A stretch of 64,000 nucleotides of DNA from assembly GCF_030384885.1 (NCBI RefSeq), contig NZ_CP128613.1; one strand, 5' to 3'. Each line of letters starts with the position of its first letter. Position 1 is the stretch's first letter. Of this stretch, positions 21,641-23,705 are shown one piece after another. Under the pieces are notes generated by a model. That model did not search any database, was not told the origin of the DNA, and saw nothing but the letters and a program-made list of their open reading frames with translations. Position numbers and translations under genes: made by a program. This DNA comes from Escherichia coli. GTDB lineage: Bacteria > Pseudomonadota > Gammaproteobacteria > Enterobacterales > Enterobacteriaceae.

Positions 21641-23077
21641 ATGACGTTTAGTAATGAAATTGAAGTTTTCATAAAAGATTTTGTTAAAGATCTTGAAAAT
21701 GATTGTGCTGCTATTTTTTCTGGCGCAGGAATGTCTAAAAGTCAAGGTTATGTTGATTGGAAAGAATTACTTAGCGATATAGCAGAAGAACTTAGTTTAG
21801 ACATTAATAAAGAAGACGATCTAATATCGCTTGCTCAATTTCATGTTAATGAAAAGAAAGGGGCTACAAAACTCACAAGGAAGATAATCGAAGAGTTTTC
21901 TGAGCAAGCCGAGCCATCAGAGGTTCATAATATAATTGCTCGTTTACCGATTAAGACATTTTGGACAACAAACTATGACACTTTAATTGAAGATAGTCTG
22001 CGGAAAGTTTACAAAATTGCAGATGTAAAAAGAAACATAGATGATTTAAATACAACACGACCTAAGCGAGACGCGATAGTATATAAAATGCATGGTGATA
22101 TTTCGTCCCCATCCAAGGCTATTTTATATAAAGAGCAGTATGAAAAATACTACAGAACACACGCTTCATTTATCACCGCACTTAGCGGAGATTTAATATC
22201 AAAAACCTTTCTATTCATAGGGTTTAGTTTTACCGACCCAAATCTGGATTACATTTTGAGTCGTTTGTATACTCATTCTGGGGACAAGAGGACACACTAT
22301 TGCTTTATGAAGAATGAGGCTAATAATTCCCTAGATGATGAAGAAACAGTAAATTATAAGATCAGAAAACAAAAACTGCGAATCGATGATCTCAAGAGAT
22401 TTGGTATACAAGTATTATTAATAGATGAATATTCTGACATCCCTAAAATTCTAGCTAAGATAGAGCAATCATTTAAAAAGAAAACGATATTTATTTCTGG
22501 TAGTGCAGAAAAATATGGGGATCTTGAAAGACCTAAAGCATTAGATTTTATTCACACATTAGCATATGAGATTATAAAGAATAATTATAGGATAGTGAAT
22601 GGATTTGGATGGGGCGTCGGAAGTTCTGTGATAAATGGTGCGTTGGATGCAATTTATAGTAGGCCAGATAAATTATCAGAAGAACAGCTCATTGTTAGAC
22701 CATTTCCACAAACTGTCAGTAAGGGGAAAGATATTCAAGAACTTTGGGAGGAGTATAGACAGAGAATGATTCCTCTTGGTGGTATTGCATTGTTTATTTT
22801 TGGAAATAAACAAGAGGAAAATAATGATATAGTTAATGCTAGGGGAGTATTTAGAGAGTTTGAGATTGCTGTTCAACATGGCCTTGTACCAATTCCTTTA
22901 CCCAATACCGGGTATATGTCTAAATATATATTTGAACAAATATCACAAGATCCTAAGAAATATTATGGAAGTAATGAATGGATATATAATGATTTGTCTG
23001 AGCTTACTGAAAAAGATTTTTCGGTAAAAAAAACAATAGAAGTTGTAATAAAAATCATAAACAAACTGAATAAATAA
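21641..23077 (+). CDS. thsA: Thoeris ThsA (SIR2 NADase domain + SLOG ligand-binding domain)
   Basis: SIR2 motifs (AAIFSGAGMS, WTTNYDTLIE, VYKMHGD) and C-terminal SLOG-like region (IFISGSAEKY...NGFGWGVGSSVINGALD); strongly resembles Bacillus cereus ThsA from memory. Confidence 0.8.
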   Translation: MTFSNEIEVFIKDFVKDLENDCAAIFSGAGMSKSQGYVDWKELLSDIAEELSLDINKEDDLISLAQFHVNEKKGATKLTRKIIEEFSEQAEPSEVHNIIARLPIKTFWTTNYDTLIEDSLRKVYKIADVKRNIDDLNTTRPKRDAIVYKMHGDISSPSKAILYKEQYEKYYRTHASFITALSGDLISKTFLFIGFSFTDPNLDYILSRLYTHSGDKRTHYCFMKNEANNSLDDEETVNYKIRKQKLRIDDLKRFGIQVLLIDEYSDIPKILAKIEQSFKKKTIFISGSAEKYGDLERPKALDFIHTLAYEIIKNNYRIVNGFGWGVGSSVINGALDAIYSRPDKLSEEQLIVRPFPQTVSKGKDIQELWEEYRQRMIPLGGIALFIFGNKQEENNDIVNARGVFREFEIAVQHGLVPIPLPNTGYMSKYIFEQISQDPKKYYGSNEWIYNDLSELTEKDFSVKKTIEVVIKIINKLNK

Positions 23078-23093
23078 TATATTAGGTGAAGTT

Positions 23094-23705
23094 ATGGCTC
23101 ATGAAACATTCATATCATATAAATATAGTGAAGCACAGGATTTAAGAGACAAAATTGTCAAGGCATTAGGAGATGACGCTGTTTACTATAAAGGGGAGAC
23201 ATCGGAGTCTCCTGATATAAGTAATACAACAGTAGATAATATAAAGAACAATCTTAAAAATATGATTTTCGGGACATCTGTTTTAATTGTTATTATTTCC
23301 CCGAATATGATTAAAAGTAAATGGATTGACTGGGAAATTGAATATGCATTGAAAGAATACAAGAGAGGAGGAACCACTTCCCGAACTAATGGCATTGTTG
23401 GTGTGATAATGAAGGTTAATAATAGCTATGACTGGTTAGTATCTTCTTCAATCAAGCCTGATGGATGTTCATCAAGAACTATTGATACAACTAAACTATA
23501 TGACATTATTAATAATAATAGGTTTAATTTAACTTCAGAAGATAAATATTGTTGCCCTGAGTGCAAATCATATGATCAATTGACTGGTTCTTATATTTCA
23601 TTGATAGAAGAAGACCGATTTTTAGCAGATGTATCTTCATACATTGAAAATGCCTATGAGAAATCTAAAAAATTAAGTTCCTACGATTTATATAAACAAA
23701 AATAG
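23094..23705 (+). CDS. thsB: Thoeris ThsB (TIR-domain protein)
   Basis: N-terminal TIR hallmark (ETFISYKYSE...) and KWIDWEIEYAL helix; immediately downstream of thsA. Confidence 0.75.
   Translation: MAHETFISYKYSEAQDLRDKIVKALGDDAVYYKGETSESPDISNTTVDNIKNNLKNMIFGTSVLIVIISPNMIKSKWIDWEIEYALKEYKRGGTTSRTNGIVGVIMKVNNSYDWLVSSSIKPDGCSSRTIDTTKLYDIINNNRFNLTSEDKYCCPECKSYDQLTGSYISLIEEDRFLADVSSYIENAYEKSKKLSSYDLYKQK

What the first reader, a model, noticed from the sequence alone, without database searches (positions are those of the whole stretch)
21641..23705. Type I Thoeris anti-phage system (thsA SIR2-SLOG + thsB TIR) carried on the serU island
The ThsA-like protein retains SIR2 catalytic motifs and a SLOG-type ligand-binding domain, and the adjacent protein has TIR hallmarks. 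This is the known Thoeris architecture, in which the TIR protein makes a cyclic ADP-ribose isomer signal that activates the ThsA NADase. Its presence with a NACHT gene and another TIR-like gene marks the island as a defence island.
Basis: partly seen in the sequence, partly recalled or inferred. Interest (0 to 1): 0.5.

Follow-up and report, generated by a model that had tools for sequence, protein, structure and literature searches.

The report
Type I Thoeris on serU island
Two adjacent genes at 21641-23705 are an intact, standard type I Thoeris anti-phage system (a signal-activated enzyme that destroys NAD+, plus a TIR-domain sensor that makes the signal). It sits on a mobile island inserted at the serU tRNA gene of E. 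coli, and routine defence-finding tools already recognise it.

Summary
Window 21641-23077 (+) encodes a 478-aa ThsA. It matches PADLOC ThsA1 at 8e-203 over its full length, with Pfam SIR2_2 plus STALD/SLOG domains. It is 59% identical to the solved E. coli ThsA 8WC0 and 46% to B. cereus ThsA.

- **ThsA residues:** the catalytic Asn/His (N111/H151) are kept. Seven of the eight 3'cADPR-contacting SLOG residues are also kept.
- **ThsB:** sixteen bases downstream, 23094-23705 (+) encodes a 203-aa ThsB (PADLOC ThsB1 1e-85; Pfam ThsB_TIR). Its E81 aligns with the essential E85 of B. cereus ThsB.
- **ThsB fold:** the predicted fold best matches B. dafuensis ThsB1/TIR1 (TM 0.80).
- **Gene pair:** the thsA-thsB pair recurs in 7 of 7 unrelated loci across phyla.
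- **Island:** the genes lie on a 22,409-bp island (11884-34292). Its ends are proven by a near-isogenic E. coli strain with an empty serU site.
- **Other cargo:** the island also carries a NACHT gene and a Cap12-type TIR-like gene (PADLOC PDC-S35).

ThsA is 100% identical to a RefSeq protein, and 48 of 5,426 complete E. coli genomes carry the same pair. This is a catalogued system and interest is low. Phage defence, signal identity and NAD+ depletion are inferred from homology, not shown.

The parts
21641..23077 (+). thsA: 478-aa SIR2-SLOG effector (NADase)
   Evidence: PADLOC ThsA1 PDLC00407 8.2e-203, residues 3-478 on profile 2-477/478. PDB 8WC0 E. coli ThsA 8.3e-191 and 6LHX BcThsA 6.7e-136. 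100% identical to RefSeq WP_001519853.1.
21956..22336 (+). SIR2 catalytic core of ThsA (Pfam SIR2_2, residues 106-232), containing N111 and H151
   Evidence: Pfam SIR2_2 3.1e-29. N111/H151 align to BcThsA N112/H152.
22436..23065 (+). SLOG (STALD) ligand-binding domain of ThsA (residues 266-475)
   Evidence: Pfam STALD PF18185 2.4e-71 over model 1-210/211. G287, S288, Q357, R373, K390, G402 and E406 equal BcThsA G289, S290, Q359, R371, K388, G399 and E403; Bc L326 is W324 here (residue list from bioRxiv 10.1101/2022.05.07.491051).
23094..23705 (+). thsB: 203-aa TIR-domain sensor and signal synthase
   Evidence: PADLOC ThsB1 PDLC00428 1.1e-85, residues 1-202. Pfam ThsB_TIR 1e-11 and TIR_2 3.1e-6. 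Predicted fold best matches BdThsB1 9VYL, E 6.8e-12, TMq 0.80.
23109..23408 (+). TIR domain of ThsB (residues 6-105) with catalytic Glu E81 in the motif S75-x-W77-x-D79-W80-E81
   Evidence: Pfam. E81 is invariant in 30 homologues and aligns with BcThsB E85 in the profile-to-PDB alignment.
23409..23702 (+). C-terminal, mostly beta domain of ThsB (residues 106-203) with invariant D123, C125, C154 and C157; putative phage-sensing part
   Evidence: Alignment A1. AlphaFold2 model has block-mean pLDDT 78-93 in this region. The domain is shared with BdThsB1 9VYL. The sensing role is inferred.
21507..21535 (+). Candidate sigma-70 promoter (TCGACA-17-TATGAT) in the 208-nt gap upstream of thsA
   Evidence: Consensus scan, 10 of 12 matches. 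The number of such sites in the region does not exceed shuffles, so this is only a candidate.
23721..23740 (.). Perfect 8-bp GC-rich hairpin (GGCCACAA-TTAT-TTGTGGCC) between convergent thsB and the lipoprotein gene; likely terminator
   Evidence: Terminator scan and sequence. The T-run lies on the minus strand, so action on thsB transcripts is inferred.
11794..11883 (+). tRNA-Ser(CGA), serU: integration site; its last 14 nt (11870-11883) form attL
   Evidence: ARAGORN; direct repeat D6; empty-site comparison.
11884..34292 (.). 22,409-bp serU genomic island that carries thsAB (GC 0.377 versus 0.511 in the core)
   Evidence: E. coli 2013C-4282 matches window 5279-11883 at 100% and 34279-49392 at 99.99%, with only the 14-nt repeat in between. 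GC values.
34279..34292 (+). attR: 14-nt copy of the serU 3' end (CCCTCTCTCCGCCA)
32897..34114 (-). Island tyrosine integrase
   Evidence: ORF. The homologous gene is annotated as a tyrosine-type recombinase/integrase in related islands.
14832..16682 (+). NACHT-domain NTPase (616 aa), island cargo, possible second defence gene
   Evidence: Pfam NACHT 6.4e-10. No PADLOC hit, no NCBIfam hit and no PDB hit. PHROG 18297 2.2e-53.
31967..32797 (-). Cap12/Pycsar-type TIR-like protein (PADLOC candidate system PDC-S35), island cargo next to the integrase
   Evidence: PADLOC PDC-S35 6.5e-68; Pfam CAP12-PCTIR_TIR 3.4e-37.

Best explanation
The locus is an intact two-gene type I Thoeris abortive-infection system.

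**Proposed mechanism (inferred from characterised homologues):**
1. ThsB (an N-terminal TIR domain plus a C-terminal beta-rich domain) stays inactive until a phage infection cue is sensed.
2. Its TIR active site, with catalytic E81, then converts NAD+ into the cyclic ADP-ribose isomer 3'cADPR.
3. 3'cADPR binds the C-terminal SLOG domain of ThsA.
4. As in the B. cereus/B. subtilis and S. equi enzymes, this drives ThsA tetramers into filaments that complete the SIR2 active site (N111/H151).
5. NAD+ is hydrolysed, the cell is depleted of NAD+, and phage replication stops.

**Shown here:** gene integrity, domain architecture, conservation of catalytic and ligand-contact residues, operon arrangement, recurrence of the gene pair across phyla, and location as cargo on a 22.4-kb mobilisable serU island.

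**Inferred from homologues:** signal identity, filament activation, NAD+ depletion and phage protection.
For: - **ThsA family and domains:** PADLOC ThsA1 8.2e-203, full length; Pfam SIR2_2 plus STALD.
- **ThsA relatives:** 59% identity to solved E. coli ThsA 8WC0 and 46% to BcThsA 6LHX.
- **ThsA residues:** N111/H151 equal Bc N112/H152. Seven of eight 3'cADPR contacts are identical (residues). The same ten residues are kept in all four partner ThsAs compared.
- **ThsB family:** PADLOC ThsB1 1.1e-85; Pfam ThsB_TIR.
- **ThsB catalytic residue:** E81 is invariant and aligned to BcThsB E85. The E85Q mutation abolishes defence.
- **ThsB fold:** best match is BdThsB1/TIR1 with NAD bound. TIR1 was shown to defend together with ThsA and to make the ThsA-activating signal.
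- **Operon signals:** 16-nt spacing and an RBS before each gene.
- **Gene pair:** thsA followed by a 203-aa thsB is found in 7 of 7 unrelated loci.
- **Selection:** versus the 99.2%-identical E. coli allele, thsA has 2 synonymous and 0 non-synonymous changes, and thsB has 5 and 1.
Against: - There is no experimental evidence for this allele. No phage assay, NAD+ measurement or signal detection is possible with these tools.
- The locus is AT-rich (GC 0.32) and sits on an island that encodes its own H-NS homologues. It may be transcriptionally silenced under many conditions.
- No promoter stands out above shuffled controls.
- One ligand-contact position differs from BcThsA (L326 to W324). W is shared by EcThsA 8WC0 and by all four partner ThsAs compared.
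- The ThsB model has only moderate confidence in the TIR half (mean pLDDT 75; residues 29-45 below 50).
Confidence: 0.9

Rival explanations
1. The pair is a Thoeris system, but it signals with a molecule other than 3'cADPR (for example 2'cADPR or another ADPR derivative). It would then be functionally a different Thoeris type despite the SIR2-SLOG effector.
For: TIR clusters are shared between Thoeris types that use different effectors and signals. ThsB here is only 28% identical to the nearest characterised ThsB. The adenine-stacking residue L326 of BcThsA, whose backbone contact discriminates 3' from 2'cADPR, is W324 here.
Against: Seven of eight pocket residues, including every side chain that contacts the diphosphate and the distal ribose, are identical to BcThsA. 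The discriminating contact at position 326 is a backbone amide, so it is not lost by side-chain change. BdTIR1, the closest characterised ThsB, makes the signal that activates BcThsA.
Confidence: 0.05
2. The TIR protein is a secreted or host-directed virulence factor (a 'Tcp' like TcpC or TlpA) that interferes with mammalian TLR signalling, rather than an anti-phage sensor.
For: TIR proteins on the related ROD21/EARL and serU islands have historically been read this way. The island occurs in human and animal E. coli isolates.
Against: - thsB is translationally adjacent to a SIR2-SLOG gene.
- That pairing is kept in environmental, non-pathogenic bacteria (Flavobacterium, Marivirga, Cupriavidus, marine metagenome-assembled genomes).
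- The best matches are all ThsB models and ThsB structures.
- No signal peptide or secretion feature is evident in the sequence (direct reading of the translation; not tested with a predictor).
Confidence: 0.02
3. The genes are intact but functionally silent passengers. They would be xenogeneically silenced cargo that gives the present host no defence and is kept only by recent horizontal transfer of the island.
For: GC is 0.32 against a core of 0.51. H-NS-family genes lie on the island. No convincing promoter was found. Only 48 of 5,426 complete E. coli genomes carry the pair.
Against: Both ORFs are full length relative to their family profiles. Substitutions against the E. coli allele are 7 synonymous to 1 non-synonymous. 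In one relative (Xenorhabdus) thsA has decayed to a fragment, which shows what loss of function looks like; that is not seen here.
Confidence: 0.03

Closest known systems
Type I Thoeris of Bacillus cereus MSX-D12 (BcThsA 6LHX/8BTO, BcThsB 6LHY)
   Same: Same two-gene architecture. ThsA is full-length alignable (46% identity) with the same catalytic N/H and 7 of 8 3'cADPR contacts. The ThsB TIR domain aligns, with E81 matching E85.
   Different: ThsB is only distantly related (profile E 0.011, TIR half only) and has a different C-terminal domain. SLOG L326 is W324. The host is a Gram-negative bacterium and the system sits on a tRNA-integrated island.
E. coli ThsA/ThsB with solved structures (8WC0 / 8WCF)
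   Same: This is the closest solved ThsA (8.3e-191, 59% identity, same length class). It is named as E. coli ThsA in PMC12700824.
   Different: Its partner ThsB (8WCF, 160 aa) is a different ThsB clade: E 0.065 by sequence and TMq 0.49. The window therefore pairs a similar effector with a different sensor.
Bacillus dafuensis FJAT-25496 Thoeris, ThsB1/TIR1 (9VYL)
   Same: This is the closest characterised ThsB, with the same TIR plus C-terminal beta-domain fold (sequence E 1.3e-17, profile E 3.8e-27, TMq 0.80). It works with a SIR2-SLOG ThsA and produces the ThsA-activating signal.
   Different: Identity is 28%. BdThsB1 is 243 aa with insertions. The B. dafuensis operon has two thsB genes and this one has a single thsB. 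Of the invariant Cys positions C125/C154/C157, only C125 is shared.
Type II Thoeris of E. coli CFT073 (TM-macro ThsA + two ThsB) on CFT073/ATCC 25922-type serU islands
   Same: Related island backbone at the same serU site, and a TIR-based defence cargo.
   Different: The effector differs (macro domain, binds ADPR not cADPR isomers). It also occupies a different cargo slot of the island. The slot that holds thsAB here holds a ComEA-family gene in ATCC 25922.
serU island / ROD21-like (EARL) island family of Enterobacteriaceae
   Same: The island is about 22.4 kb and integrated at serU. It has full-length and short H-NS homologues, a relaxase, type IV pilin/PilV genes and an integrase next to one att site.
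   Different: The cargo content differs: type I Thoeris, NACHT and PDC-S35 here, against other genes in CFT073, ATCC 25922 and the 48-genome variant.

Membership tests
Type I Thoeris (ThsA SIR2-SLOG + ThsB TIR) | Effector with an N-terminal SIR2 NADase domain that keeps the catalytic Asn and His (BcThsA N112, H152) | tested here: met
   Pfam SIR2_2 3.1e-29. N111 and H151 align to N112/H152.
Type I Thoeris (ThsA SIR2-SLOG + ThsB TIR) | Effector C-terminal SLOG/STALD domain with the 3'cADPR-binding pocket | tested here: met
   Pfam STALD 2.4e-71, full model. G287, S288, Q357, R373, K390, G402 and E406 are identical to the BcThsA contacts; L326 is W324.
Type I Thoeris (ThsA SIR2-SLOG + ThsB TIR) | At least one adjacent same-operon gene encoding a TIR-domain ThsB with the catalytic Glu | tested here: met
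   PADLOC ThsB1 1.1e-85; Pfam ThsB_TIR/TIR_2; TIR fold; E81 aligned to BcThsB E85. Same strand, 16-nt gap.
Type I Thoeris (ThsA SIR2-SLOG + ThsB TIR) | Gene pair conserved together across unrelated genomes | tested here: met
   Seven of 7 loci encoding a homologous 203-aa ThsB have a SIR2_2+STALD gene immediately upstream; one of these is decayed.
Type I Thoeris (ThsA SIR2-SLOG + ThsB TIR) | ThsB produces 3'cADPR on infection, and ThsA NADase is activated by it | not testable with these tools
   Biochemistry is required. Inferred from BcThsA/BdTIR1.
Type I Thoeris (ThsA SIR2-SLOG + ThsB TIR) | Confers phage resistance by abortive infection with NAD+ depletion | not testable with these tools
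   Needs plaque assays and NAD+ measurements.
Type II Thoeris (TM-macro effector) | Effector with transmembrane helices and a macro domain | tested here: not met
   ThsA has SIR2_2 plus STALD only, with no macro domain hit. PADLOC's best models are ThsA1.
DSR2 / stand-alone defence sirtuins | Large single-gene SIR2 protein reaching the NCBIfam Dsr2 cut-off | tested here: not met
   NCBIfam Dsr2 scores 68.3 bits against a cut-off of 1400, and only the SIR2 region (residues 5-201) matches.
serU genomic island (E. coli; related to ROD21/EARL islands) | Insertion at the 3' end of tRNA-Ser(CGA), flanked by a direct repeat, with an integrase beside one end | tested here: met
   A 14-nt repeat lies at 11870-11883 and 34279-34292. 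The integrase is at 32897-34114. The empty site in strain 2013C-4282 confirms the insertion.
serU genomic island (E. coli; related to ROD21/EARL islands) | Backbone genes: H-NS homologue(s), relaxase, type IV pilin/PilV | tested here: met
   H-NS 7.9e-52 at 16894-17298. MobQ relaxase, pilin and PilV homologues are annotated in the 94.8%-identical island.

The most novel reading that the evidence does not exclude
The 203-aa ThsB clade found here may be an unusually constrained Thoeris sensor.

- All listed members are 202-204 aa except one of 218 aa.
- They are 65-70% identical between Enterobacterales, Burkholderiales and Flavobacteriia.
- ThsB is more conserved than its partner ThsA in 18 of 21 pairwise comparisons.
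- The ThsA and ThsB trees are incongruent.
- The C-terminal domain has an invariant D123/C125/C154/C157 cluster that BdThsB1 lacks.

This could mean the clade recognises a broadly conserved infection cue through a clade-specific, possibly metal-binding, C-terminal module. The module would then be exchanged between ThsA backgrounds as a portable sensor cassette.
Probability: 0.15. Interest if true: 0.35.

Novelty: already known. Interest (0 to 1): 0.15.

Why it matters
The finding matters little beyond annotation. It shows that this E. coli strain carries an intact NAD+-depleting abortive-infection system on a mobilisable island. That is relevant for predicting phage host range or choosing therapeutic phages, and for anti-Thoeris counter-defence (Tad-type sponges). 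The island comparison adds a modest point. serU-type islands have a fixed-boundary cargo slot in which type I Thoeris alternates with other genes, and sister islands carry type II Thoeris in another slot. The island family therefore acts as a vehicle for swapping TIR-based immunity among E. coli.

Tried and rejected
- **Third component upstream.** I asked whether the upstream 320-aa ORF (20470-21432) is a third Thoeris component. I rejected this. It has no PADLOC, NCBIfam or PHROG hit. It is part of the island backbone in ATCC 25922-type islands that lack thsAB. It is frameshifted in the 48-genome variant that keeps thsAB.
- **PDC-S35 as a second ThsB.** I asked whether the TIR-like PDC-S35 gene acts as a second ThsB. 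This is unlikely. It lies 8.3 kb away on the opposite strand in another cargo slot, and it is absent from the island variant that keeps thsAB.
- **Non-coli host.** Early searches of the island and left flank gave 80-95% identity to E. coli, which suggested a non-coli host. I rejected this because the core at 49000-61000 is 100% identical to E. coli 2013C-4282.
- **Phage or plasmid origin.** There is no match in the phage collection, and only distant (60-90% identity, less than 80% coverage) Thoeris homologues on plasmids.
- **NACHT protein.** The PDB sequence search found nothing.
- **Literature on the solved structures.** A search for papers describing 8WC0, 8WCF or 9VYL found only a passing mention that 8WC0 is E. 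coli ThsA.
- **Promoter.** The scan gave no enrichment over shuffles.
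Full report
**Observation**

The span 21641-23705 contains two same-strand ORFs.
- The first runs 21641-23077 from an ATG and encodes 478 aa. An in-frame TTG at 21608 gives a longer ORF, but RefSeq annotates the 478-aa product in related genomes.
- The second runs 23094-23705 and encodes 203 aa.
- A GGAG lies 9 nt upstream of the first ATG and an AGGTGA lies 5 nt upstream of the second. The genes are 16 nt apart.

**ThsA**

PADLOC's ThsA1 model PDLC00407 matches residues 3-478 on profile positions 2-477 of 478, at E 8.2e-203. Pfam finds SIR2_2 (residues 106-232, 3.1e-29) and STALD, the Sir2- and TIR-associating SLOG family (residues 266-475, 2.4e-71, full model).

Against solved structures, the best sequence match is 8WC0 (8.3e-191; 59% identity). 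A paper in the library names 8WC0 as E. coli ThsA. Next comes B. cereus ThsA 6LHX (6.7e-136; 46% identity).

I mapped residues through the printed alignment.
- The catalytic Asn112/His152 of BcThsA correspond to N111/H151 here.
- The 3'cADPR contacts listed by Manik et al. (G289, S290, L326, Q359, R371, K388, G399, E403) correspond to G287, S288, W324, Q357, R373, K390, G402 and E406.
- Only the hydrophobic stacking residue differs. W is also present in 8WC0 and in all four partner ThsAs compared.
- The NCBIfam Dsr2 model touches only the SIR2 region, at 68 bits against a cut-off of 1400. This is not a DSR2-type protein.

**ThsB**

PADLOC ThsB1 PDLC00428 matches residues 1-202 at 1.1e-85. Pfam gives ThsB_TIR (1e-11), TIR_2 (3.1e-6) and TIR (6.2e-4).

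A search of the large protein collection returned 2,333 homologues. Of the best 120, all but one (218 aa) are 202-204 aa, and most are exactly 203 aa. They are 64-99% identical and come from Enterobacterales, Cupriavidus, Xenorhabdus and many Flavobacteriia.

In a 30-sequence alignment, 58 columns are invariant. These include the motif S75-x-W77-x-D79-W80-E81 and, in the C-terminal half, D123, C125, C154 and C157.

A profile of that alignment was searched against the PDB. It aligns E81 with E85 of B. cereus ThsB (6LHY/9B7D). The E85Q mutation of that residue abolishes defence and NAD+ depletion.

An AlphaFold2 model (mean pLDDT 75, pTM 0.78; weaker in residues 29-45) best matches 9VYL, 'BdThsB1 with NAD' (E 6.8e-12, TMq 0.80). 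Other ThsB and TIR structures follow. BdThsB1 is the TIR1 protein of B. dafuensis. It was shown to protect B. subtilis together with ThsA and to generate the molecule that activates B. cereus ThsA.

**Gene-pair conservation**

For seven homologous ThsB proteins from unrelated genomes, I fetched the encoding contigs. These were Cupriavidus pauculus, Flavobacterium seoulense, Pectobacterium polaris, a Muricauda-like contig, Marivirga, Xenorhabdus and a metagenome-assembled genome (MAG).
- In all seven, a SIR2_2+STALD gene lies immediately upstream on the same strand.
- In Xenorhabdus it has decayed to a 169-aa STALD fragment.
- In three of the Bacteroidota and metagenome-derived loci, an extra TIR_2 gene precedes thsA.
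- The ten key ThsA residues are identical in every partner checked.

Against the 99.2%-identical allele in E. coli 2016C-3878, thsA has 2 synonymous and 0 non-synonymous differences. thsB has 5 synonymous and 1 non-synonymous (S182L). This is consistent with purifying selection, although the counts are small.

**Mechanism**

From the published work on type I Thoeris, the most likely sequence of events is as follows.
1. ThsB senses infection.
2. Its TIR domain cyclises NAD+-derived ADPR to 3'cADPR.
3. The SLOG domain of ThsA binds 3'cADPR.
4. ThsA tetramers assemble into filaments that complete the SIR2 active site.
5. NAD+ is depleted and the infection aborts.

Architecture and residue conservation are shown here. 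All biochemical steps are inferred. The trigger is unknown. By analogy with other ThsBs, the C-terminal domain is the likely sensor, but that is inference.

**Genomic context**

ARAGORN finds tRNA-Asn at 10727-10802 and tRNA-Ser(CGA), which is serU, at 11794-11883. The last 14 nt of serU (CCCTCTCTCCGCCA) recur at 34279-34292.

E. coli 2013C-4282 is 100% identical to window 5279-11883 and 99.99% identical to 34279-49392. Only that 14-mer lies between the two blocks. The island is therefore exactly 22,409 bp (11884-34292). Its GC content is 0.377 against 0.511 for the core, and thsAB alone is 0.32.

Island genes include:
- an integrase at 32897-34114 (minus strand);
- a MobQ-type relaxase at 26888-28369 (minus strand);
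- a RepL-like protein;
- a full-length H-NS homologue at 16894-17298 and a short one;
- a type IV pilin and PilV.

This matches the published 22.5-kb 'serU island', which is related to the ROD21/EARL islands.

The NACHT ORF (14832-16682; Pfam 6.4e-10) and the Cap12-type TIR-like ORF (31967-32797; PDC-S35 6.5e-68) are real. Both are absent from the otherwise 94.8%-identical island found in 48 complete E. coli genomes, which keeps thsAB.

**Cargo slot**

In total, 548 E. coli genomes share the flanks of the thsAB region.
- The right breakpoint is fixed at window 23753-23755, the stop of a SEN1984-family lipoprotein gene.
- The left breakpoint varies between 20472 and 21343.
- Alternative cargo there includes a ComEA-family gene (ATCC 25922), a DUF4238 gene and a DUF2971 gene.
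- ATCC 25922-type islands carry macro-domain and TIR genes in another slot. This is the type II Thoeris architecture described for CFT073.

**Novelty and verdict**

ThsA is 100% identical to RefSeq WP_001519853.1, and ThsB differs by one residue from WP_001519852.1. Forty-eight of 5,426 complete E. coli genomes carry the pair at the same site. PADLOC models cover both proteins end to end.

Two mildly unusual points came out of the comparisons:
- In this clade ThsB is more conserved than ThsA, in 18 of 21 pairs, and the two trees are incongruent.
- The C-terminal domain has a clade-specific invariant Cys/Asp cluster.

Noticed in passing
window 20472-23755: This is a variable cargo slot in serU-type islands. 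The right breakpoint is fixed at the stop of the SEN1984-family lipoprotein gene (23753-23755) and the left breakpoint varies (20472-21343). In other E. coli, thsAB is replaced by a ComEA-family gene, a DUF4238 gene or a DUF2971 gene.
   Followed up: partly
L002 (E. coli ATCC 25922) 6507-7661; window 25696-26809: ATCC 25922-type serU islands carry a macro-domain gene next to a TIR gene after the LptM-like lipoprotein gene, which is the architecture of CFT073 type II Thoeris. In the window, the region between the LptM-like lipoprotein gene and mobQ holds two unknown minus-strand ORFs instead (190 aa with an N-terminal hydrophobic segment; 164 aa). These have only weak PHROG hits.
   Followed up: partly
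window 14832-16682: A 616-aa NACHT-domain NTPase (Walker A motif GIAGQGKST) has no PADLOC, NCBIfam or PDB match, but matches a PHROG of unknown function at 2.2e-53. In the 48-genome island variant, the corresponding position holds a DUF6404 gene.
   Followed up: partly
window 31967-32797 (-): A 276-aa protein has a C-terminal Cap12/Pycsar-type TIR-like domain (PADLOC candidate single-gene system PDC-S35, 6.5e-68) next to the island integrase. The 48-genome variant has a VOC-family gene there.
   Followed up: partly
window 17990-18053: An 8-nt tandem repeat, TTAGCTCT, occurs about six times between the DUF4756 gene and the RepL-like gene. It may be an iteron-like element or a slippage-prone element of the island's replication/maintenance module.
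   Followed up: no
ThsB homologues P0001-P0120; loci L005-L012: This ThsB clade is 64-70% identical across phyla, and all but one of the best 120 members are 202-204 aa. ThsB is more conserved than its partner ThsA in 18 of 21 pairs. The ThsA and ThsB similarities are also incongruent: L009 versus L010 gives ThsA 89% and ThsB 70%, while L006 versus L012 gives ThsA 47% and ThsB 77%. This suggests module shuffling.
   Followed up: partly
window 23460-23567 (ThsB residues D123, C125, C154, C157): An invariant Asp and three invariant Cys lie in the ThsB C-terminal domain. Only C125 aligns with a Cys in BdThsB1 (9VYL). This may be a clade-specific metal or disulfide site. Their spatial proximity in the model was not checked.
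   Followed up: no
window 1208-5283 versus L008 1-5053: The intimin-like, Ig-like-domain protein gene is much shorter in the window (1,347-aa ORF) than in the otherwise near-identical strain 2013C-4282 (7,989-nt gene). The window also lacks that strain's LysR regulator, cysteine hydrolase and hypE genes downstream of it. This indicates a roughly 7-kb deletion or rearrangement at about window position 5283.
   Followed up: partly
window 10803-10900 and L008 13281-13583: Beside tRNA-Asn, strain 2013C-4282 has integrase remnants, and strain 2016C-3878 has a full integrase plus other cargo (L001 20-5124). A second tRNA-linked integration hotspot therefore lies within 1 kb of serU.
   Followed up: no
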